Source: Gammaproteobacteria bacterium (GTDB taxonomy: Bacteria > Pseudomonadota > Gammaproteobacteria > Magnimaribacterales > TMED112). From it: a DNA stretch of 64,000 nucleotides. The stretch spans positions 184,151 to 248,150 of the forward strand of contig PBBW01000005.1 in NCBI GenBank assembly GCA_002716745.1. Reading direction: 5' to 3'. A model generated the notes under the pieces. That model saw nothing but the letters and a program-made list of their open reading frames with translations, made no database searches and was not told the origin of the DNA. This document shows, one piece after another, positions 9,725-61,594 of the stretch. Position 1 is the stretch's first letter. Each line of letters begins with the position of its first letter. The position numbers and the translations under genes were made by a program.

Positions 9725-11185
9725 ATGGAAAAGGTTCAACAAGAAGCACTAACATTTGATGACGTTTTGGTTATACCAAAACACTCAGATGTCTTGCCCA
9801 AAGACGTATCTCTAAAAACAAAATTTACAAAAAACATTTTTTTAAACCTTCCATTTTGTTCAGCTGCAATGGACACAGTAACTGAGTCAAAAATGGCAAT
9901 TGCCTTAGCATCTCTCGGTGGCATTGGCATTATACACAAGAACTGCTCCCCATCTGAGCAAGCTGAACAAGTTAAAAAAGTTAAAAAGTTTGAAAGCGGA
10001 ATTGTTAGAGACCCAATAACTATTGAATCCTCAAATACTATCGCTGAATTAATACAACTTACTTCTGAATTAAATATTTCAGGTATGCCAGTTGTAGATA
10101 ACGGTGATTTAAAAGGGATTGTAACAAGAAGAGATTTTAGAAATGCAAGAAATACTGAACAAAGTGTTAAAAGCATTATGACTTCCAAAGAAAAATTAAT
10201 AACAGTCACAGAGGGCGAAGATCAAGAGACTGTTAAATCACTAATGTATAAACATCGAATTGAAAAGATCTTAGTTCTTGATAAACAAAAAAATTTAGTT
10301 GGATTAATAACAATGAAAGATATTGAGAAATCAATAGATTATCCACTGGCATCAAGGGATCCAGAGGGCAGACTAATTGTTGGTGCTGCAGTTGGTGTAA
10401 GTAAAAATTTAGATGAAAGAGCTAAAAAGCTCTCATCAGCTGGAGTAGATGTCTTTGTTATAGATAGTGCACACGGGGACTCAAAAGGAGTTGTGGATGT
10501 TTTAAAATCCCTAAAAAAACAATATCCAAGCATTGATGTGGTTGCAGGAAATGTTGCTACAAAAGAGGGAGCTCAATTACTTATTGATGCTGGCGCTGAT
10601 GCAATAAAAGTTGGAGTTGGCCCTGGCTCTATTTGCACAACTAGAATAATTGCGGGCATAGGAGTTCCACAACTATCCGCTATTTTAGAAGTTCGAAAAG
10701 CATGTAAGAGCATCCCTATAATTTCGGATGGTGGTATAAGATTTTCTGGAGATGTGGTAAAAGCAATTGGTGCAGGAGCAGACTCTGTAATGCTTGGAAG
10801 TGCTTTTGCCGGAACAGAAGAAGCTCCAGGAGAAGTTGAGCTTTACCAAGGTAGAAGCTTTAAGACATATAGAGGAATGGGCTCGATAAGTGCAATGGCA
10901 AAAATGACTGATGCAAGCAGGTATATGCATGGAGACGATGTTGATGCTGATAAAATGGTTCCAGAGGGCATTGAGGGAAGGGTTCCTTTCAGAGGCTGGT
11001 TAAAAGATGTTGTCTTTCAAATGGAAGGTGGCCTTAGACAGGGAATGGGATATACAGGATCTGAAACTATTCTAAATTTAAAAGAAAGAGTTCAATTTCA
11101 AAAAATCACCTCCTCTGGAGTAAAAGAAAGCCATGTACATGATGTAAGCATCACTAAAGAGGCACCAAATTATAGAGCAGATTGA
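9725..11185 (+). CDS. guaB: IMP dehydrogenase
   Basis: Full-length IMPDH with a CBS pair. Catalytic loop '[11 protein letters not shown]'. Also 'ISDGGIR.SGD' and 'GSAFAG'. Confidence 0.95.
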
Positions 11186-12708
11186 TGAAAAAAATCTTAG
11201 TTATAGATTTCGGCTCTCAATACACACAACTTATTGCAAGAAGACTTAGAGAGCTTAATATATACTCCGAAGTACGCCCTTGGGATGAAGTCTCAAGTCT
11301 TGAAGATGTTGAAGGATTTGTTCTTTCAGGTGGTCCAGAGTCCTCAAATATAGATGGTAATCCTAAAATAGATAAAAGCATATTTGATTCTAAAAAACCT
11401 ATCTTAGGTGTTTGTTATGGAATGCAAGTGCTTGCATATCAAGAAGGTGGAGAGATAGCCAACGAAGGCAAAAAAGAATTTGGTCACACTGAAATTGAGC
11501 TGAAAAATAATTCTTCGTTATTTAATGGTATTGAAGAAAAAGTTAATGTATGGATGTCACATGGTGACAAAGTGAAATCGCTTCCTGAAGGATATGAAAT
11601 TATTGCCTCTTCTAATAACTCACCAATTGCAGCATTTCAAAATCATTCAAAAAATCACTTTGGATTGCAATTCCATCCTGAGGTTACTCATACAAAATTT
11701 GGTACTCAAATTATTGAAAACTTCGTAGAGAGGTGCGACATTAAGCAAAACTGGAATGCATCAGATATTCTTAATCAAATAGATGAAGAAGTTGCAAGAA
11801 CAGCAAAAAATGAGAATGTACTACTAGCATTAAGTGGCGGTGTAGATTCTACAGTTCTAGCAGCAGTACTTTATAAAATATTAGGCAAACGACTAACATG
11901 TGTCATGGTAGATCATGGTTTACTAAGGATGAACGAAGGAAAAAATGTGATAAATAATTTGAAAGAGAAAATCGGTTTAGAAGTGAATTTAGTCAATGCT
12001 GAGGATTTATTTTTAAATAAATTAATTGGCATTACTGATCCTGAGAAAAAAAGAAAAATTATTGGTAACACATTTATAGAAGTATTTGAGGAGGAGAGTA
12101 AACAACTTGATGGTATTAAGTGGCTTGCACAAGGTACTATTTATCCAGATGTAATTGAATCTGCAGGTAACTCAAAATCAAAAGCAAAAGTTATTAAGTC
12201 TCATCATAATGTTGGAGGCTTGCCAGAAAGAATGAACCTTAAATTATTAGAGCCTTTTAGGATGTTATTTAAGGACGAAGTTAGAAAGATTGGAAAAGCC
12301 ATTGGCTTGCCAAATGAGATTGTTGAAAGACATCCATTCCCAGGTCCCGGTCTTGGCATAAGGGTGATTGGTGAAGTAAATGAAAAAAGGCTACAAAGAT
12401 TAAGAGAAGCAGACCACATTTTTTTAACAGAGCTAAAAAATTATGATTTATATTATTCTGCGAGCCAGGCATATGCTTTTTATATGCCAATAAAATCAGT
12501 AGGAGTAGTTGGAGATAACAGGATATATGCAGATGTAATTGGATTGAGATCAGTAAATACCACTGATTTTATGACCGCTAAAGCAACAAATCTTCCTCAT
12601 GAGTTCGTAGAGCATGTCTCTACCCGTATAGTTAATGAGATTGATGGAATAAGTAGGGTGGTCTACGATATCACTTCAAAACCACCAGCCACAATCGAGT
12701 GGGAATAA
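11182..12708 (+). CDS. guaA: GMP synthase (glutamine-hydrolysing)
   Basis: GATase 'GVCYGMQ', PP-loop 'SGGVDS' and the C-terminal 'KPPATIEWE'. Confidence 0.95.
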   Translation: MMKKILVIDFGSQYTQLIARRLRELNIYSEVRPWDEVSSLEDVEGFVLSGGPESSNIDGNPKIDKSIFDSKKPILGVCYGMQVLAYQEGGEIANEGKKEFGHTEIELKNNSSLFNGIEEKVNVWMSHGDKVKSLPEGYEIIASSNNSPIAAFQNHSKNHFGLQFHPEVTHTKFGTQIIENFVERCDIKQNWNASDILNQIDEEVARTAKNENVLLALSGGVDSTVLAAVLYKILGKRLTCVMVDHGLLRMNEGKNVINNLKEKIGLEVNLVNAEDLFLNKLIGITDPEKKRKIIGNTFIEVFEEESKQLDGIKWLAQGTIYPDVIESAGNSKSKAKVIKSHHNVGGLPERMNLKLLEPFRMLFKDEVRKIGKAIGLPNEIVERHPFPGPGLGIRVIGEVNEKRLQRLREADHIFLTELKNYDLYYSASQAYAFYMPIKSVGVVGDNRIYADVIGLRSVNTTDFMTAKATNLPHEFVEHVSTRIVNEIDGISRVVYDITSKPPATIEWE

Positions 12709-12716
12709 AGTGAATA
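12691..12716 (+). repeat. Left copy of a 26-bp imperfect direct repeat (last 5 codons and stop of guaA plus 8 nt)
   Basis: ACAATCGAGTGGGAATAAAGTGAATA. Matches 15945-15970 at 22 of 26 positions. Confidence 0.8.
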
Positions 12717-12744
12717 GATCTATAATTTAAAAAGAGCAATTGAG

Positions 12745-14496
12745 ATGAAAGAAAAAATAACATGCCTGATAAGAGGAAAAGAAGTTGTAAAAACTCCTGA
12801 AGAAATTGTGAGACAGGATTTTATTGCAGAACTTATAGAGCACCATAACTACTCAAAAGAGCAAATTGCTGTAGAAGTCGGAATAAAGATGGGCTCTACT
12901 ATTCACAAGAAAAGAGCAGATATTGTTGTTTATGAAGATACAAAAAAGTTAACTCCAAAAATTATAATTGAGAATAAAAAGAAAAATAGAATTGATGGAT
13001 TAGATCAGCTTCATTCATATATGAATGCTACTGGTGTAATTTTTGGGGTTTGGACAAATGGTGATCCTGTTTTCCAGCTAAAAGAGAATGTTAATAGATT
13101 TAGAGTTATAAGTAATATTCCGAAAGATGGCGAGACTCTTGAGGATATCGATAACCCATTAACAAAATCAGATCTGAGAAAAATTGAAGATTTAGTTTCA
13201 GTCATAAAGGATTGTGAAAATGAGATTGCTCTTCAGCAAGGAGTTGATTTTTTTAATGAAATTTTTAAGATAATTTTTACAAAGCTTTACGATGAAAAAA
13301 CAAATCTTTCTAAAGATACCTCTAAGTGCGAATTTAGAATTAAAGTCACAGACAGTCATAAAAATTCAGCAGAGACTATAAAAAAACTATTTTCAAAAGC
13401 TAAAACAAAATGGAAAGGTATTTTTGATGATAATGAGGAGATTAAACTTAACAATTATAATACTACATACACTGCGAGTGCTTTAGAAAATTACCATTTG
13501 ATTGGATCGAATATAGATGTTATTGGAACTGCTTTTGAAGCGATGGTAAATCCTGATTTTAAAGGAGAATTGGGACAATATTTCACTCCTAGACAAGTCG
13601 TAAAGGCATGTGTAGAAATGTTAAATCCTAAAGAAGATGAAACAGTATTCGATCCCGCTTGCGGCTCAGGAGGTTTTCTTGTTTATGCTTTAGATCATGT
13701 TTACAAAACAATAGAGCAAAAATGGGATAACCCGGTTGAGGCTATCAGCCAACAAAACGAATATGCTCAAAGAAAAATTTTTGGACTGGATTATGATCCA
13801 AGATTAGTAAAAGTCTGTAAGGCTTATATGTTAATTTGGGGAGATGGCAGATCAAATATTTATTGGAAGGATTCAATAGATTCTGATGCTTGGGATAGTC
13901 AGATAAAACAATCAATTAAAGATATCGATATTATTTTTACAAATCCGCCTTTTTCTGGCGATTTAAAAAAAACGGAAGTTCTATCCCAATTTGATTTGTC
14001 ATATAAGGGGGATCCTTCATCAAACAAAATACAGAATAAAGTAACAAAACCAATTTTAATGCTAGAACAATGTTATAAGGTATTAAAACCTGGTGGAAGG
14101 CTATGCATAGTTTTACCACAAGGAATTTTAAATAACTTAAATGATGACTATATTAGAGATTTTCTTAAAGATAAATTTAGGATTCTTGGAATTGTTGGCT
14201 TAGAACAAAATACTTTTAAGCCATTTACTACTCCCAAGACATCACTTTTATTCCTTCAAAAGTATAAAAAAACAGATATTAAAGAAGAAAATTATGAAGT
14301 TTTTATTGCTACATCTAAGTTTTCTGGAAAGGATAAAAGAGGAAATAATGTTTATGAAGGGCAGGAATTGATTAAAGGATTTAGAGTTGGGAAAGATCCT
14401 GAGAACGCAAATATAGAAGATATCAAAACTGACTTATATGAAATTTCTCAAGAATTTATAAAATTTTGTAAAAAACAGAATTTGGATTTCTTTTAG
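12745..14496 (+). CDS. Fused PD-(D/E)xK (HsdR_N-type) domain and gamma-class N6-adenine DNA methyltransferase (candidate R-M subunit)
   Basis: The N-terminal approximately 100 aa resemble the type I HsdR N-terminal domain, with 'RADIVVYED...IIIENKKK' (D59...E76-x-K78). The MTase part has 'GQYFTPRQVV', motif I 'VFDPACGSGGFL' and motif IV 'FTNPPFSG'. Confidence 0.75.
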   Translation: MKEKITCLIRGKEVVKTPEEIVRQDFIAELIEHHNYSKEQIAVEVGIKMGSTIHKKRADIVVYEDTKKLTPKIIIENKKKNRIDGLDQLHSYMNATGVIFGVWTNGDPVFQLKENVNRFRVISNIPKDGETLEDIDNPLTKSDLRKIEDLVSVIKDCENEIALQQGVDFFNEIFKIIFTKLYDEKTNLSKDTSKCEFRIKVTDSHKNSAETIKKLFSKAKTKWKGIFDDNEEIKLNNYNTTYTASALENYHLIGSNIDVIGTAFEAMVNPDFKGELGQYFTPRQVVKACVEMLNPKEDETVFDPACGSGGFLVYALDHVYKTIEQKWDNPVEAISQQNEYAQRKIFGLDYDPRLVKVCKAYMLIWGDGRSNIYWKDSIDSDAWDSQIKQSIKDIDIIFTNPPFSGDLKKTEVLSQFDLSYKGDPSSNKIQNKVTKPILMLEQCYKVLKPGGRLCIVLPQGILNNLNDDYIRDFLKDKFRILGIVGLEQNTFKPFTTPKTSLLFLQKYKKTDIKEENYEVFIATSKFSGKDKRGNNVYEGQELIKGFRVGKDPENANIEDIKTDLYEISQEFIKFCKKQNLDFF

Positions 14497-14498
14497 TC

Positions 14499-15878
14499 AT
14501 GAATTTCAATATTGTTAAATTATCTGATTTGATTGATAAAAAGAGAATGGACTCAGAGTATTTCTATGCTGAGTTAATTAACGAAGAAAAATCAATTAAA
14601 GAAGGAAAGCTTTTTGAGGATTATTTTAAAGTTTTAGGAGATAAGTTTGATAAAAATAAATACGATAAGGATACTTTCAATTATTTAGAAATATCTGGCA
14701 TAGATGTATATTCTGGGAATTATGTTACGGACATTCATAAAACAGACTTAGCACCATCTAGGGCAACAAAATTAGCAAAACTTGGTGCTGTAGTCGTATC
14801 TTCGGTGCGTCCTTATAGGAGTGGAGTTGCTATTATCCAGAAAGAATGTGTCTGTTCTTCAGGATTTATTTTGTTTGAGCCCACTGGAGATATCTCAAAA
14901 GAAGAACTATTTCTGTATCTAAAATCAGATTTGTTCAAACGACAAATTTCGAGGAGAACAAGAGCTACTATGTATCCTGCTGTAGATGAAATTGATTTCA
15001 AAGATCTCGTTTTACCAAATCTTGATTATAGTTTCTCGCAAGAAATTAAAACCAAGATACCTAATATTTATTCTCTTGAGGAAAAGAAATTAAAAATTGA
15101 GGATGAAACAAAAGAGGCGGTAAACCTATTCTTAACTAACTATTTTAAGGGTTTGGATATAGATTCTATTAAGAATTTATCTATATCAAAAATTGATATA
15201 TCAACTTTATTTCAGGATAAAGAAAACAGAATAGACTCTGAGTTTTATCATAAATTTTATCTATCTATGGAGGAACTTTTCTTGAAATCAGGTAACTTCT
15301 TTTATTTGAAAGATTATTTCCAAACTATATTCAAGGGTAATACACCCTCAAAAAAAGAACAAACTGAAAGTAACTATGGATACTCAATTATAAAGGCTAA
15401 TGCACTATCAGATGCAGGATTAAATTTTTTTAAGAGAGAGCCTATAACAGAAGATTTTTATAAAAAGTCTATTTCAAAATTAACTCAACATCTTGATATT
15501 CTAATTTTATCAGATGCTCATAGTCAGGATCATATTGGTAAGAAGATAAATATAATTACTGAAGATGAATCTTTGTTAGAGTCAGTGATAACATCAGGAG
15601 AGCTCATAACAATACGAGGAGGCAAATTATCTAATGGCTTAATTTTATATTTATATTTCTTTTTAGGCTCAAGATATGGATATTTATCTATTCAAAGGCA
15701 AGTAAGGGGCATCACTTCACACTTGTATCCTAATGATGTGTTGGAAATAAAAATTCCAGAACCAGATAAGCAATTGTTAAGCACTATTGAACAAAACTTC
15801 AAAATTATTAATAAGCTAGATAAAGAAAAGAAACAAATTTTAAAAAAATTGCTCGATAAGTATGATGAATTCATTTAA
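14499..15878 (+). CDS. Restriction-modification specificity (S) subunit with two target-recognition domains
   Basis: Two internally repeated halves. Each opens with 'R(M/I)DSE(Y/F)' and ends with an HsdS-type conserved region ('MYPAVDEIDFKDLVLPNLDYSFSQEI' and 'HLYPNDVLEIKIPEPDKQLLSTIEQ'). Starts 2 nt after the methylase stop. Confidence 0.7.
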   Translation: MNFNIVKLSDLIDKKRMDSEYFYAELINEEKSIKEGKLFEDYFKVLGDKFDKNKYDKDTFNYLEISGIDVYSGNYVTDIHKTDLAPSRATKLAKLGAVVVSSVRPYRSGVAIIQKECVCSSGFILFEPTGDISKEELFLYLKSDLFKRQISRRTRATMYPAVDEIDFKDLVLPNLDYSFSQEIKTKIPNIYSLEEKKLKIEDETKEAVNLFLTNYFKGLDIDSIKNLSISKIDISTLFQDKENRIDSEFYHKFYLSMEELFLKSGNFFYLKDYFQTIFKGNTPSKKEQTESNYGYSIIKANALSDAGLNFFKREPITEDFYKKSISKLTQHLDILILSDAHSQDHIGKKINIITEDESLLESVITSGELITIRGGKLSNGLILYLYFFLGSRYGYLSIQRQVRGITSHLYPNDVLEIKIPEPDKQLLSTIEQNFKIINKLDKEKKQILKKLLDKYDEFI

Positions 15879-15944
15879 TCGAGTTACAAAGTATAATTAT
15901 GAAGCCTTTAAAGTATTGATTTTACAGGCTATTTTAGTAACGTA

Positions 15945-15970
15945 ACTATTGAGTGGGAGTGAAGTGAATA
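15945..15970 (+). repeat. Right copy of the 26-bp direct repeat (degenerate guaA 3' terminus)
   Basis: ACTATTGAGTGGGAGTGAAGTGAATA. Reads T-I-E-W-E-stop plus AGTGAATA and abuts the ATG at 15971. Confidence 0.8.
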
Positions 15971-16816
15971 ATGGTTAATTCACTAGATCATATTATCGTC
16001 GCAGTAGAAGATCTTGAGGTCGCAAAAAATAATTATGAGAAAATCTTTGGTTTGTCACCAGTTTGGCGAGGGAAACATAAAGATTTTGGAACGTCGAACG
16101 TATTATTTAATTTTGAAAATACTTATTTCGAGCTTTTAGCCTCAACTGGAACTGGTTTGGGAGCAGAGCTTGTAGAAAAGCATATTAAAGAGAAAGGTGA
16201 AGGGCTATTGGGCTTTGTAATGGGCACTGATGATATAAATTTTTTAAGAACAAAAATTAATGATTCTGGTTTTTCATTACCAGACTTAACAAGTGGTGAG
16301 AGCATAAATGACCAAACTGGAGAAACAAGAACATGGATAAATCAATTTTTGCCCCCTGAGATGTCTCGTGGTTTATTTTCTTTTGTTATTCAGCATAAAA
16401 CTGGAGTTTTGCCCTCAGTTGATTCATATTCTAGATCAGCGATACACAGATTAGATCATGCTGTAATTCAAACAAATGATCCTGATGGATTCATAAAAAT
16501 TTATAGGGATGTATTTGGTATTCGGTTAGCACTGGATAAATTTATTAAGGCCTGGAAAAAGAGGATGTTGTTTTTTAGGACCAATAAAACCACTATTGAA
16601 GTCATAGAGGAACATGGTTCTGAACCAGAATGCAATGATACTCTTTGGGGATTAGCATGGCAGGTTAAAGATATTGTAGAAGTAAGAAATAGACTTTTAA
16701 AAAACAATGTCGAAATTACAGAAATTAAGGAAGGAATCAAAGATGGCACCCTAGTAGCTACTCTTAAGTCGCATAATCACAATGTTCCAACTCTTTTCAT
16801 AGAAAATAAAATATAG
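15971..16816 (+). CDS. VOC/glyoxalase-like two-domain protein
   Basis: 'LDHIIVAVEDLEVAKNNYEKIFG' and a second 'LDHAVIQTNDPDGFIKIYRDVFG' module. This is a tandem glyoxalase-like fold pattern. Confidence 0.6.
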   Translation: MVNSLDHIIVAVEDLEVAKNNYEKIFGLSPVWRGKHKDFGTSNVLFNFENTYFELLASTGTGLGAELVEKHIKEKGEGLLGFVMGTDDINFLRTKINDSGFSLPDLTSGESINDQTGETRTWINQFLPPEMSRGLFSFVIQHKTGVLPSVDSYSRSAIHRLDHAVIQTNDPDGFIKIYRDVFGIRLALDKFIKAWKKRMLFFRTNKTTIEVIEEHGSEPECNDTLWGLAWQVKDIVEVRNRLLKNNVEITEIKEGIKDGTLVATLKSHNHNVPTLFIENKI

Positions 16817-16877: not shown

Positions 16878-18824
16878 CTGAACTACAGAGCAGAAATTGA
16901 CGGTTTACGAGCATTAGCCGTGTTGCCAGTCATCTTTTTTCATGCAGGCTTTCAATATTTTAGTGGTGGATTTGTTGGAGTAGATGTTTTTTTCGTAATC
17001 AGTGGATACCTAATTACGAACATTATTTTATCTGAATTATCGCAAGACAGATTTAGTGTTTTAAATTTTTATGAGAGACGAGCTAGAAGAATTTTGCCAG
17101 CATTATTTTTCGTTATGCTTACTTGCATTCCATTTGCTTGGTTTTTACTTACACCAAGTGATCTTAAAGATTTTGGAGAGAGCCTAATTGCTGTTTCTAC
17201 TTTTTCATCAAACTTTTTATTTTGGTTTGAAAGTGGGTACTTTGAAACTACAGCAGAGCTTAAACCACTCTTGCATACTTGGAGTTTGGCAGTTGAGGAA
17301 CAGTATTACATCATTTTTCCAATATTTTTATTAGCATTTTGGCGCTTTGGAATTAAATCGATACTGCTTATTTTAGGGCTAGCTTTTTTTGCAAGCCTAT
17401 TAATAGCTGAGTGGGGAGCATACAACAAGCCATCAGCAACCTTTTACCTTCTACCAACAAGAGGATGGGAGCTATTAATAGGTGTATTTATTGCTTTTTA
17501 TTTAAAATACAGAGGTCACTTTAAATCCTCAGCTTTGAACCAAATTTTAAGTATTTCTGGATTAGGGATGATAGTTTATTCAATAATTTTTTTCGATCAA
17601 TCTACCCCATTTCCAAGCTTTTTTACATTAATACCAACTGTTGGTACAGGGCTACTAATTCTTTCGGCAGTTAATAAAACTATTGTTTATAAAATTTTAA
17701 GCCTTTCTCCAATTGTCTCAATTGGGCTTATTTCTTATAGCGCATACCTTTGGCATCAGCCATTGTTAGCTTTTGCAAAACATAGATTTTTGGAGGGGGT
17801 ATCAGATCTTATGTTGATTATTCTCTGTCTGAGCTCATTAGTTCTTGCTTATATAAGTTGGAAATGGGTAGAGAAACCTTTTAGAGATAAAGCCAGAACT
17901 TCAAGGAAATTTATTCTTAATTTTTCTGTGTTAGGAATATTATTTTTTAGTGCTATTGGTATGAGCATGCTTTTGAGTAAGGGTTTTGAAGGAAGGGTAA
18001 ATTTTTCTGAGGAACTAAAAGATTCTTTTAGTAAGCCTAAGGTAGGAGTTTGTTTTGATAGACCCTATAATCATTTCTCTGATGAATGGGGATGTCTTCT
18101 AGGAACTAAAAAAGAAAAGGTTGATTTCATACTATTTGGTGATTCACATGCTCTATCTTTAAAAAGTATTGTTGACAAAATTGCTACAGAAAGAGGATTA
18201 AGTGTATTTTTTACTGGATCTTCTGGATGCCCTCCTTTCATCGGAGCATTTCCCAACAGACCAGACCAGATAACCAATAATTGCAAAGCACTAAATGATA
18301 GAGTTTTAAACTATGCACGCAAACAACAAGTCAATGGAATTATTTTTTCTGCGAGATGGTCTTATTATATTGATGGAAGTTATGACGGCACTGGTGCTCA
18401 GCTAATTGCAAGGTCTAAGGATGGCCCATTTACAAAAGAAAATAGTATAAAAGCATTCAACAAATCTTTTCTTGAAACAGTAAAAGAGTACAAAGAAAAT
18501 AATATTCCAATATATTTAATATCGCAGCCCCCTCAACAAACTTCTTCTCCAGAAACGTTTTATTTCAGAACAACAAGGGGCATTGGTAGCATTTATGATT
18601 TTTCAGTTACTCGAGAAAAGTTTGAGAGTTTGGAGCGAATACCCGTTACAACATTTAAATCATTTGAAGATGAAATCAATTTTTTTCACATTATTGATGA
18701 ATTCTGTGATGAAGATAAATGTTTGGTTGGAGAAGTAAATAAAAGTTTTTATTATGACGATGATCACTTATCTACTTATGGTTCTATGAAGCTGAAAGGA
18801 ATTATTGAAGAAATTCTAAAATAG
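16878..18824 (+). CDS. OafA/YrhL-type acyltransferase-3 with C-terminal SGNH domain (probable CTG start)
   Basis: 'EIDGLRALAVLPVIFFH', 'GVDVFFVISGYLIT', 'YERRARRILPAL' and 'HTWSLAVEEQYY'. C-terminal 'LFGDSHA...DDDHLS'. The frame is open from 16863. The CTG at 16878 aligns with the paralog's Met. Confidence 0.8.
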   Translation: MNYRAEIDGLRALAVLPVIFFHAGFQYFSGGFVGVDVFFVISGYLITNIILSELSQDRFSVLNFYERRARRILPALFFVMLTCIPFAWFLLTPSDLKDFGESLIAVSTFSSNFLFWFESGYFETTAELKPLLHTWSLAVEEQYYIIFPIFLLAFWRFGIKSILLILGLAFFASLLIAEWGAYNKPSATFYLLPTRGWELLIGVFIAFYLKYRGHFKSSALNQILSISGLGMIVYSIIFFDQSTPFPSFFTLIPTVGTGLLILSAVNKTIVYKILSLSPIVSIGLISYSAYLWHQPLLAFAKHRFLEGVSDLMLIILCLSSLVLAYISWKWVEKPFRDKARTSRKFILNFSVLGILFFSAIGMSMLLSKGFEGRVNFSEELKDSFSKPKVGVCFDRPYNHFSDEWGCLLGTKKEKVDFILFGDSHALSLKSIVDKIATERGLSVFFTGSSGCPPFIGAFPNRPDQITNNCKALNDRVLNYARKQQVNGIIFSARWSYYIDGSYDGTGAQLIARSKDGPFTKENSIKAFNKSFLETVKEYKENNIPIYLISQPPQQTSSPETFYFRTTRGIGSIYDFSVTREKFESLERIPVTTFKSFEDEINFFHIIDEFCDEDKCLVGEVNKSFYYDDDHLSTYGSMKLKGIIEEILK

Positions 18825-61518: not shown

Positions 61519-61594
61519 TGGCTCCCCGAACTGGGCTCGAACCAGTGACCCACTGATTAACAGTCAGTTGCTCTACCAACTGAGCTATCGGGGA
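61519..61594 (-). tRNA. tRNA-Asn (anticodon GTT), CCA encoded
   Basis: The reverse complement folds as a cloverleaf: acceptor TCCCCGA/TCGGGGA, D arm GCTC-AGTTGGTA-GAGC, anticodon loop CTGTTAA, T arm ACTGG-TTCGAGC-CCAGT, discriminator G plus CCA. 76 nt. Closely resembles E. coli tRNA-Asn. Confidence 0.9.

What the first reader, a model, noticed from the sequence alone, without database searches (positions are those of the whole stretch)
12691..15970. R-M cassette inserted at the guaA stop codon, bracketed by a 26-bp repeat that is a synonymous copy of the guaA 3' end
Seen directly: 12691-12716 is ACAATCGAGTGGGAATAAAGTGAATA and 15945-15970 is ACTATTGAGTGGGAGTGAAGTGAATA, matching at 22 of 26 positions.
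- The left copy is the true end of guaA (Thr-Ile-Glu-Trp-Glu-TAA) plus 8 nt.
- The right copy also reads Thr-Ile-Glu-Trp-Glu-stop plus the same 8 nt.
- All four mismatches are silent: ACA/ACT, ATC/ATT, GAA/GAG and TAA/TGA. That is the divergence expected between two guaA termini that evolved under purifying selection in different lineages, not a chance match.
- The right copy abuts the ATG of the VOC gene at 15971, so an empty site would read guaA-stop-AGTGAATA-ATG. That spacing fits the packing seen elsewhere in this window.
- The 3.2-kb interval holds only the methylase and S genes. Single hand-counted 60-nt lines gave about 22% GC there versus about 40% in guaB.

Established knowledge: the guaA 3' end is a recognised attachment site for tyrosine-recombinase islands such as GIsul2.

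Inference: this is an attL/attR-like scar of a site-specific insertion that now lacks, or never carried, its own integrase.
Basis: partly seen in the sequence, partly recalled or inferred. Interest (0 to 1): 0.75.

Follow-up and report, generated by a model that had tools for sequence, protein, structure and literature searches.

The report
Recombinase-less defence cassette docked at guaA
A two-gene restriction-modification cassette has been spliced precisely into the last codons of the GMP-synthase gene (guaA) of an uncultured marine SAR86 bacterium. It belongs to a family of small cassettes, none carrying a recombinase gene, that stack up at this same spot in SAR86 genomes; the mechanism is a known kind, in a new host.

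Summary
The two 26-mers (12691-12716 and 15945-15970) match at 22 of 26 positions and have no other relative in the window.

Same-species contigs carry the predicted empty site, guaA-TGA-AGTGAATA-ATG(VOC); 21 of 24 contigs read were empty. In two independent empty/filled pairs (window vs L093; L177 vs L209):
- The left copy is native left part plus foreign right part.
- The right copy is foreign left part plus native right part.

This is the reciprocal attL/attR pattern of conservative site-specific recombination. The exchange lies next to the octamer GAGTGGGA, the published core of the guaA-targeting island GIsul2.

Other SAR86 lineages carry unrelated cargo at the same site. Each cassette ends in a homologous right arm of about 75-90 nt, with tandem short repeats, followed by ACTAYTGAGTGGGA. 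L177 holds two such modules in tandem.

The cargo here is a complete BsaXI/BcgI-like two-gene system (nuclease-methylase fusion plus S subunit), not only a methylase. The GC contrast is much weaker than claimed (29.7% vs 33.0%).

No integrase was found in the cassette, the window ORFs tested or about 45 related contexts, so the recombinase is inferred. This is a CIME-like new member of a known kind.

The parts
11185..12708 (+). guaA (GMP synthase), intact; its last 18 nt are part of the left att copy
   Evidence: Pfam GATase + GMP_synt_C hits. An identical 507-aa protein is found on 24 contigs read.
12691..12716 (+). Left att copy (attL-like): ACAATCGAGTGGGAATAAAGTGAATA. The native guaA end runs to about position 16; the stop codon TAA and AGTGAATA are inferred to be element-derived.
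   Evidence: Empty alleles have TGA at this stop. The independently filled L177 has the identical left copy, although its sister empty allele L209 reads TGAAGTAAATA.
12697..12704 (+). Core octamer GAGTGGGA in the left copy
   Evidence: It lies in every intact guaA-end copy compared; only the decayed right copies of L094/L095 depart from it. It is the same octamer as the published GIsul2 att core (PMC9376610). The TARA-derived contigs L082/L083 start exactly here.
12717..12744 (+). Left end of the cassette: a 28-nt leader before the first gene, not conserved between cassettes
   Evidence: Compared with L177.
12745..14496 (+). Cargo gene 1: 583-aa fusion of a PD-(D/E)xK-type nuclease domain (HSDR_N_2) with a gamma-class N6-adenine DNA methylase (RM subunit, Type IIB-like)
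   Evidence: Pfam HSDR_N_2 5.5e-25 and N6_Mtase 9.4e-40. The best solved relative is RM.BsaXI 8w0p, 2.2e-28, over the methylase part (residues 170-573). The MADS MAD2 model scores 365 bits, below its 720-bit cutoff. A D...ExK motif (ADIVVY...IIENKKK) is read directly from the translation.
14499..15878 (+). Cargo gene 2: 459-aa specificity (S) subunit
   Evidence: No Pfam hit. It matches solved S subunits 5ybb_D and 3okg_A at 1.4e-14. The MAD5 S-subunit model scores 57.6 bits, below cutoff. The homologous neighbour gene in L185 has a weak Methylase_S hit.
15879..15944 (+). Conserved right arm of the cassette (attP-arm-like). It contains AGTTACAAAGT (15882-15892) and a second AAAGTAT (15910-15916).
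   Evidence: It aligns with the right ends of unrelated cassettes in L177, L003, L001, L095, L094 and L097. The nhmmer profile hit spans 15867-15958.
15945..15970 (+). Right att copy (attR-like): ACTATTGAGTGGGAGTGAAGTGAATA. The left part is element-derived; the TGA and 8-nt spacer are native and preserve the VOC start context.
15971..16816 (+). Glyoxalase/VOC-family gene, the native downstream neighbour of guaA
   Evidence: Pfam. It lies directly 8 nt after guaA in empty alleles.

Best explanation
The 3.25-kb segment 12717-15970 (equivalently 12691-15944) is a non-autonomous integrative cassette.

How it got there (inferred). As a circle, it recombined by conservative site-specific recombination with the chromosomal site formed by the last codons of guaA plus the 8-nt spacer. 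That site (attB) reads ACAATCGAGTGGGAATGAAGTGAATA. The cassette's own site (attP) was about ACTATTGAGTGGGA(A/G)TAAAGTGAATA, preceded by a 70-90-nt arm. The exchange took place at or just 3' of GAGTGGGA.

What it left (shown):
- guaA keeps its reading frame with an element-supplied stop codon.
- VOC keeps its native upstream sequence.
- The cassette is bracketed by attL and attR.

Cargo and expression. The cargo is a self-contained two-gene restriction-modification system of BsaXI/BcgI architecture. It is probably read through from the guaBA operon.

Recombinase (inferred). The cassette has no recombinase gene. I infer that a guaA-end-specific tyrosine recombinase acts in trans, encoded by an autonomous relative or helper not present in this window. 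Published work shows this for the integrase-less CR2-sul2 unit of GIsul2, and it is the model for cis-mobilizable elements.

What rests on what. The insertion, the precise reciprocal junctions, the recurrence and the tandem stacking are shown. The enzyme, the circular intermediate and current mobility are inferred.
For: 1. Empty alleles exist with exactly the predicted junction. They occur in the same species (98% ANI, no indels in the flanks) and in a roughly 84% amino-acid-identity lineage.

2. Reciprocal hybrid junctions in two independent pairs.
- Window lineage: empty ...GGGAATGAAGTGAATA, left copy ...GGGAATAAAGTGAATA, right copy ACTATT...GGGAGTGAAGTGAATA.
- L177 lineage: empty (L209) ...GGGAATGAAGTAAATA, left copy ...GGGAATAAAGTGAATA, right copy ACTATT...GGGAATGAAGTAAATA.
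- In both, the left copy's distal part is foreign and the right copy's distal part is native.

3. Unrelated cargo at the same site, each cassette ending in a second guaA-end copy.
- L177: a GIY-YIG protein, plus a second R-M system (N6_N4 methylase, PRK11524 model 454 bits).
- L095/L094: a flavodoxin-like protein and a membrane protein.
- L003: two small membrane proteins.
- L210/L097: a Methyltransf_21 enzyme.
- L001: broken ORFs.
- L095: a 220-nt non-coding module.

4. A homologous right arm of 75-90 nt lies upstream of that copy in all of them. It carries short tandem repeats resembling arm-type sites: 2x AAGTTACAAAG in L177, 2x ACTTGTAAACT in L097 and 3x ATGGAGTGTTCAAAAYA in L095. The element-side half-site is always ACTAYT, whatever the host's own codons.

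5. L177 shows two modules in tandem. A 28-nt imperfect inverted repeat flanks the middle core, an attP-like arrangement.

6. The shared core GAGTGGGA equals the experimentally defined GIsul2 att core at guaA. GIsul2 Int moves an integrase-less att-bounded unit in recA-deficient E. coli (PMC9376610). The guaA 3' end is a listed target of several tyrosine-recombinase elements (PMC5704250; PIMEs).

7. IMG/VR provirus contigs from other taxa end at the guaA TIEWE stop codon.
Against: No recombinase gene was found anywhere I could look:
- the cassette itself;
- 19 window ORFs scanned;
- the called genes of about 45 related contexts;
- 10 ORFs downstream of guaA in L001-L004.

No SAR86-type attP or arm appears in IMG/VR or INPHARED.

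Only two independent empty/filled comparisons exist, and the empty contigs form one clade (1-51 SNPs per 9 kb).

In the window, the G at position 15 of the right copy forces the apparent exchange into the 1-2 nt between positions 15 and 17. That fits a classical 6-8-bp overlap region only if heteroduplex repair or an extra substitution is assumed.

The left arm is short (28 nt) and not conserved.

No circular form, and no read-level evidence of excision, could be examined.
Confidence: 0.7

Rival explanations
1. RecA-dependent Campbell-type integration. A circular DNA carrying a guaA-end copy, for example looped out of another strain, integrated by ordinary homologous recombination through the roughly 26-nt homology. 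No dedicated recombinase would be needed.
For: The repeat (26 nt, with identical blocks of 8 and 9 nt) is near the minimal length for RecA recombination. No integrase was found. Homologous replacement clearly operates at this border: L098 and L217-L224 have guaA 97-99% identical but VOC only 67%.
Against: The exchange falls between mismatches at positions 15 and 17 rather than in the longer identical blocks. A 75-90-nt arm with tandem repeats is conserved across cassettes with unrelated cargo and across hosts whose guaA differs by 20-25%, which homology-driven integration would not maintain. In L001 and L003 the repeat is only about 17-18 nt.
Confidence: 0.12
2. A cassette dock served by a chromosomal housekeeping recombinase. 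The cassettes would be moved by a host core enzyme (Xer-like or other) that recognises the guaA-end site, as with pdif modules or integron cassettes. No element-borne integrase would ever have existed.
For: Recombinase genes are absent from every cassette and neighbourhood seen. The cassettes are very small (0.2-3.3 kb), carry cargo only, and share a conserved recombination end.
Against: By eye, the site shows no resemblance to the dif consensus as I recall it; this was not tested with a tool. The site and core coincide with those of integrase-encoding guaA islands. Only 64 kb of this genome was available, so an element elsewhere cannot be excluded.
Confidence: 0.1
3. R-M-driven 'insertion with long target duplication' (Furuta, Abe and Kobayashi 2010), or a transposon-type target-site duplication that later diverged.
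For: R-M units flanked by direct repeats of the target, without other mobility genes, are documented (PMC2853133).
Against: The right copy is not a copy of the local target. It differs from the empty site at 3 of its first 15 positions, while the flanks differ by 2% or less. The same structure carries non-R-M cargo and even a non-coding module. No transposase is encoded among the cargo genes, and by eye the cassette ends are not inverted repeats (the left end was not scanned with a tool).
Confidence: 0.04
4. The cassette is ancestral, and the 'empty' alleles are deletions between chance-similar repeats.
For: Recombination between the two copies would yield exactly the empty sequence.
Against: The empty arrangement is shared by the majority clade, by the L209 lineage and by the roughly 84% amino-acid-identity lineage. 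The filled alleles carry different cassettes. Excision is in any case the reverse step of the same mechanism.
Confidence: 0.03

Closest known systems
GIsul2 and its internal CR2-sul2 unit (guaA-targeting tyrosine-recombinase island of gamma-proteobacteria)
   Same: Both insert in the 3' end of guaA and leave the gene intact. The att copies are centred on the same octamer, GAGTGGGA. There can be more than two att copies. An integrase-less unit bounded by two att copies is excised and integrated by the island's integrase, independently of RecA (PMC9376610).
   Different: No integrase, replication or transfer genes appear here or in any related SAR86 context. The cassettes are 0.2-3.3 kb rather than 15 kb. 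The host is an uncultured, streamlined marine clade. Homology of the recombinase could not be tested. The shared core may simply reflect the invariant Glu-Trp-Glu codons.
CIMEs (cis-mobilizable elements) and site-specific accretion, e.g. at fda in Streptococcus thermophilus
   Same: The element is flanked by attL and attR, lacks integration and transfer genes, sits at the 3' end of a housekeeping gene, and forms tandem arrays with other elements that use the same site (definition in PMC5704250; tandem L177).
   Different: CIMEs are defined as decayed ICEs or IMEs. No autonomous parent is known here, and the cassettes look uniformly minimal with a conserved arm rather than like random deletion remnants.
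Tycheposons and the cassette-like island remnants of Prochlorococcus
   Same: Marine streamlined host. Repeated integrations at one site push older elements inward and leave partial target copies between cargo modules. The cargo is defence and niche genes (bioRxiv 10.1101/2020.12.28.424599). A homologue of this very R-M pair (77% aa) sits between partial-tRNA direct repeats in L184.
   Different: The target is a protein-gene 3' end, not a tRNA. No tycheposon-type recombinase or replication module was seen.
BsaXI/BcgI-type (Type IIB) restriction-modification systems (the cargo)
   Same: Two genes: a nuclease-methylase fusion and a separate S subunit. The best solved relative of gene 1 is RM.BsaXI, over its methylase part, and gene 2 matches S subunits.
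   Different: Identity is low and the protein is shorter (583 vs 916 aa). Activity, recognition site and double-sided cleavage are untested. The MADS MAD2 and MAD5 models match only below their cutoffs.
R-M insertion with long target duplication (Furuta et al. 2010)
   Same: An R-M unit flanked by direct repeats of the target, with no mobility gene (PMC2853133).
   Different: Here the repeat is 26 nt, below their 30-bp criterion. It is a hybrid of native and foreign sequence, comes with a conserved arm, and is shared with non-R-M cargo.

Membership tests
guaA-3'-end integrative elements of the GIsul2 type | Inserted in the 3' end of guaA with the reading frame restored | tested here: met
   The left copy reads T-I-E-W-E-TAA. 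guaA is 100% identical in protein to that of empty strains.
guaA-3'-end integrative elements of the GIsul2 type | att copies share the core GAGTGGGA | tested here: met
   12697-12704 and 15951-15958. The core lies in every intact copy aligned; only the decayed L094/L095 right copies depart from it. Published core: PMC9376610.
guaA-3'-end integrative elements of the GIsul2 type | Element-encoded tyrosine integrase of that family | tested here: not met
   The element holds only two ORFs, neither a recombinase. None was found in related contexts.
guaA-3'-end integrative elements of the GIsul2 type | Integrase-dependent, RecA-independent excision and integration | not testable with these tools
   This needs read-level data or an experiment.
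CIME (cis-mobilizable element) | Flanked by attL and attR produced by site-specific integration | tested here: met
   Reciprocal hybrid junctions against empty alleles in two independent pairs.
CIME (cis-mobilizable element) | Lacks integration and transfer genes | tested here: met
CIME (cis-mobilizable element) | Derived by decay of an ICE or IME | tested here: inconclusive
   No autonomous relative was found in the genome, metagenome or viral scans available.
CIME (cis-mobilizable element) | Tandem accretion with other elements at the same att site | tested here: met
   L177 has three att copies bounding two modules. L095 and L210/L097 are also multi-module.
Tycheposon | tRNA/tmRNA attachment site and tycheposon-type tyrosine recombinase | tested here: not met
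   The target is guaA. The only tRNA in the window is tRNA-Asn at 61519-61594, with no partial copies. No recombinase was found.
Type IIB R-M (BcgI/BsaXI-like) | Fused nuclease-methylase subunit plus a separate S subunit | tested here: met
   HSDR_N_2 + N6_Mtase in one protein. RM.BsaXI is the best PDB hit. The S subunit is recognised.
Type IIB R-M (BcgI/BsaXI-like) | Cleaves on both sides of a bipartite site | not testable with these tools
   Biochemistry is needed.
MADS (methylation-associated defence system) | Scores above the NCBIfam cutoffs, and the multi-gene mad locus as I recall it from the literature (gene count not checked here) | tested here: not met
   MAD2 scores 365 bits against a 720-bit cutoff, and MAD5 57.6 against 400. 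Only two genes are present.
R-M insertion with long target duplication | Both repeats are copies of the single target sequence and are longer than 30 bp | tested here: not met
   The repeat is 26 nt. The right copy differs from the empty target at positions 3, 6 and 15, and the left copy at position 17. Criterion from PMC2853133.
DNA transposon / IS | Transposase and terminal inverted repeats | tested here: not met
   No transposase domain. A scan of the right end (15860-15975) found no arm pairing with the left end, and by eye the two ends read are not inverted repeats; the left end itself was not scanned.

The most novel reading that the evidence does not exclude
SAR86 genomes keep a dedicated 'cassette dock' at the guaA stop codon. 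A population-wide pool of minimal, cargo-only cassettes (0.2-3.3 kb) is exchanged and stacked there. Each cassette carries a conserved recombination arm of about 80 nt plus ACTAYTGAGTGGGA. The recombinase is never linked to the cassettes; it would be a host core enzyme or a rare helper. Functionally this would be an integron- or tycheposon-like gene-capture system, built on a protein-gene 3' end in a streamlined, plasmid-poor marine bacterium.
Probability: 0.3. Interest if true: 0.75.

Novelty: new member of a known kind. Interest (0 to 1): 0.55.

Why it matters
SAR86 is among the most abundant uncultured bacterioplankton groups, and how its small genomes gain and lose flexible genes is largely unknown.

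This locus gives a concrete, sequence-defined mechanism: a precise attachment site, a recognisable cassette end, empty and filled alleles co-existing in one species, and different defence systems swapped in at the same nucleotide.

It also gives primers and search strings for follow-up: the attB, attL, attR and predicted attP sequences. These allow cassette turnover to be tracked in ocean metagenomes and the responsible recombinase to be hunted.

For annotation, the 'orphan methylase + S' is a complete Type IIB-like restriction system. It is strain-variable, present in 3 of 24 contigs read.

Tried and rejected
Searches for an integrase or autonomous element (all negative):
- Pfam on the cassette and on 10 further integrase-sized window ORFs.
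- Pfam on 10 ORFs downstream of guaA in L001-L004.
- Inspection of the called genes in contexts of five guaA variants and three VOC variants.
- Pfam and PHROGs on the L184 neighbours.

Searches for an attP, arm or the cassette in viral or phage data:
- Seven IMG/VR scans used core, arm and attL/attP strings and the RM protein. They returned only guaA ends at provirus borders of other taxa, or chance hits.
- INPHARED gave no match to the arm and only distant RM homologues.

Other negatives:
- Rfam gave no family for the arm or core.
- There are no partial tRNA-Asn copies in the window.
- No guaA-end remnant lies after the AT3 acyltransferase gene (16920-18824), where the P0004 lineage lacks VOC+AT3.

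Ideas considered and set aside:
- I looked at guaA proteins of 520 aa as possible C-terminal replacements. They carry an internal insertion instead.
- I considered reading the 26-mer as two imperfect inverted half-sites (TATTGAGTG / rc TATTCACTT, 6 of 9) around a 6-nt spacer GGARTR. The right half is not conserved in other lineages, so I do not rely on it.
- The contig starts of L082/L083 exactly at GAGTGGGA hint at a second upstream context for the cassette. Both derive from the same TARA assembly, so they cannot count as evidence.

Full report
**What is in the window.**
The window is a low-GC (33.0%) genome piece of the SAR86 clade. The closest named genome is SAR86 cluster bacterium AG-422-P06, with guaA 81% identical in protein.
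- guaB (9725-11185) and guaA (11185-12708) are followed by two co-directional ORFs, 12745-14496 and 14499-15878.
- Next come a glyoxalase/VOC gene (15971-16816) and an AT3-SGNH acyltransferase.
- Neither has another relative in the window, on either strand, even at 6 mismatches.
- None of 300 Markov-simulated windows gave a hit with 4 mismatches or fewer.
- The four differences are all synonymous. By my own count, 9 of 54 possible coding changes are silent, so p is about 8e-4 for four.
- The composition argument is weak. The insert is 29.7% GC, the 5th percentile of 3.2-kb windows, and GC3 is no different from the neighbours.

**The empty site exists.**
A metagenome scan with the VOC protein found CENU01013964.1 (L093). 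It is 99-100% identical in protein, and guaA is followed after 8 nt by VOC: ACAATCGAGTGGGAATGAAGTGAATA|ATG.
- A look-up of the exact guaA protein read 24 contigs. Of these, 21 are empty with this same junction and 3 carry the cassette.
- Empty and filled strains differ by 2.1% on the left (0.6% within guaA) and 1.4% on the right, with no indels and no excess divergence near the junction.
- The empty contigs form one clade, with 1-51 SNPs per 9 kb.
- A lineage with about 84% amino-acid identity in guaA/VOC (about 79% nt in guaA) is also empty, with a different spacer: TGA-AGCGAGCA-ATG (L096, L180-L182).
- The guaA-VOC adjacency is therefore ancestral and the cassette is an insertion.

**The junctions are reciprocal hybrids.**
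The empty site equals left copy positions 1-16 plus right copy positions 17-26.
- The left copy keeps the native ACAATC...GAA but has TAA, where all empties have TGA.
- The right copy has foreign ACTATT...GAG but the native TGA and spacer.

A second, independent case confirms this. L177 has guaA 97% identical in protein, and its flanks are about 97-98% identical to the window in nucleotides. It carries different cargo at the same nucleotide. Its sister empty allele L209 is 97.4% and 98.2% identical to L177's flanks, closer than to the window. L209 reads ...GGGAATGAAGTAAATA|ATG.
- L177's right copy ends in the native TGAAGTAAATA.
- L177's left copy ends in TAAAGTGAATA, which differs from the native sequence at two positions and is identical to the window's left copy.

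So attL is native-left plus element-right, and attR is element-left plus native-right. The exchange lies between positions 6 and 17, and between 15 and 17 in the window. That is immediately 3' of GAGTGGGA.

**It is a family.**
Second guaA-end copies lie downstream of guaA in several SAR86 lineages, bounding unrelated cargo:
- L177 has two tandem modules. One is a 298-aa GIY-YIG protein. The other is a 346-aa ORF plus an N6_N4 adenine methylase. Three att copies bound them.
- L095/L094 have a 220-nt non-coding module, then a membrane protein and a flavodoxin-like protein, then a decayed copy.
- L003 has two small membrane ORFs.
- L001 has about 740 nt with broken ORFs.
- L210/L097 have a Methyltransf_21 gene, then TylF-like and pyruvyl-transferase genes.

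Immediately upstream of every right-hand copy lies a homologous arm of 75-90 nt, with elements ACAAAGT, an A-run, GCWCYYGRAAMCAC and GGGTTTCA. It carries short tandem repeats.

The half-site next to the arm is ACTATT or ACTACT on every intact right-hand copy, while the hosts' own codons there vary: ACAATC, ACAATT and ACCATT, with L001's own end happening to read ACTATT as well.

An nhmmer profile of the arm hits only these right ends, plus one new one in L097, and nothing else in 0.96 Mb of related loci or the window. In L177 the middle copy is flanked by a 28-nt imperfect inverted repeat, an attP-like layout.

**The cargo.**
- Gene 1 fuses an HSDR_N_2 nuclease-type domain, with a D...ExK motif, to an N6-adenine methylase. 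Its best solved relative is the Type IIB enzyme RM.BsaXI, over the methylase part.
- Gene 2 has no Pfam hit but matches solved S subunits and, below cutoff, the MADS S model.
- This is the BcgI/BsaXI architecture, a complete restriction-modification system rather than an orphan methylase.
- No + strand terminator-like site lies between guaA and VOC. The cassette is probably transcribed with guaBA.
- The right copy preserves VOC's native upstream 8 nt and the GGGAG stretch before it.
- A 77% identical RM+S pair occurs in another low-GC marine genome (L184). There it is bracketed by roughly 200-nt direct repeats containing a tRNA 3' half, three copies in a row. The same cargo therefore also travels in tRNA-type att arrays.

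**Mechanism.**
The following point to conservative site-specific recombination between a circular cassette and the guaA-end attB:
- precise reciprocal junctions;
- a conserved element-side half-site and arm;
- tandem stacking;
- an exchange point beside a short invariant core.

Published work gives a close precedent. GIsul2 inserts in the guaA 3' end at GAGTGGGA and has three att copies. Its integrase moves an integrase-less att-bounded unit in recA-deficient cells (PMC9376610). The guaA end is also used by ATE-1, a Brucella IncP island and PIMEs. Elements that retain att sites but have lost int are called CIMEs and accumulate by accretion. Tycheposons show the marine analogue at tRNAs.

**The gap.**
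No recombinase was found in the cassette, in the 19 window ORFs scanned, in about 45 related gene neighbourhoods, in L001-L004, or in viral and phage collections. The enzyme, the circle and present-day mobility are inferences.

RecA-mediated integration through the short homology and a host-encoded recombinase remain possible. I rank them lower because of the conserved arm and the position of the exchange.

**Verdict.**
- This is a CIME-like, integrase-less cassette at a guaA att site.
- The kind of system is known.
- What is new is the host, the uniformly minimal cargo-only cassettes with a conserved arm, and the co-existence of empty, R-M-A and R-M-B alleles in one SAR86 species.

Noticed in passing
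L184:1064-10818 (GCA_902627975.1 CACOLC010000014.1): A 77%-identical homologue of the RM+S pair sits between roughly 200-nt direct repeats that contain a tRNA 3' half (GGTTCAAATCCTGTAGCGCCCAC). A third repeat copy lies 6 kb further on, so this is a tRNA-type att cassette array. No integrase was detected among its ORFs.
   Followed up: partly
L177:8507-11890 (ENA ERZ23831678 contig-121_590): A close relative carries two different modules at the same nucleotide: a GIY-YIG protein, and a second R-M-like pair (346-aa ORF plus a PRK11524-type adenine methylase). A third guaA-end copy, flanked by a 28-nt inverted repeat, separates them.
   Followed up: yes
window:15971-18824 vs L098 and L217-L224: There is a same-species replacement polymorphism starting right at the guaA stop codon. 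VOC+AT3 is replaced by a 67%-identical VOC plus four other genes (a 344-aa ORF, an SDR, a 245-aa ORF and a thioredoxin-like protein), while guaA stays 97-99% identical. In the P0004 lineage guaA is followed directly by DoxX. The guaA end is therefore also a homologous-recombination boundary of a variable region.
   Followed up: partly
window:16920-30191: The region downstream looks like a glycan or surface-modification island. It has two AT3-SGNH acyltransferases, a Methyltransf_21 enzyme, a 2OG-Fe(II) oxygenase and a polysaccharide pyruvyl transferase.
   Followed up: partly
L082:1 and L083:1 (= window 12697): Two records derived from a TARA assembly begin exactly at the first base of the core GAGTGGGA in the left copy. 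This would happen if the cassette side also occurs behind a different upstream sequence, such as a circle or a tandem array. Both records stem from one assembly, so the hint is weak.
   Followed up: no
L095:6362-6581: A 220-nt module with no ORF of note lies between guaA and a second guaA-end copy. It holds three tandem ATGGAGTGTTCAAAAYA units plus the arm, and looks like a bare recombination end left without cargo.
   Followed up: partly
L148, L149, L155-L166, L191-L198 (IMG/VR): Many predicted proviruses of other taxa end at the guaA ...KPPATIEWE stop codon. Two large viral contigs (108 and 203 kb) carry a partial mimic, ...YITATIEWE*. This is consistent with guaA-end attachment being widespread among integrative elements and phages.
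   Followed up: partly
window:12745-15878: The RM and S proteins give clear but sub-threshold matches to the MAD2 and MAD5 models of the methylation-associated defence system (365 bits against a 720 cutoff, and 57.6 against 400). This suggests the two-gene Type IIB-like systems and MADS share components.
   Followed up: no
window:61519-61594: This is the only tRNA in the window (tRNA-Asn, minus strand). No partial copies of its 3' half occur elsewhere in the window.
   Followed up: yes
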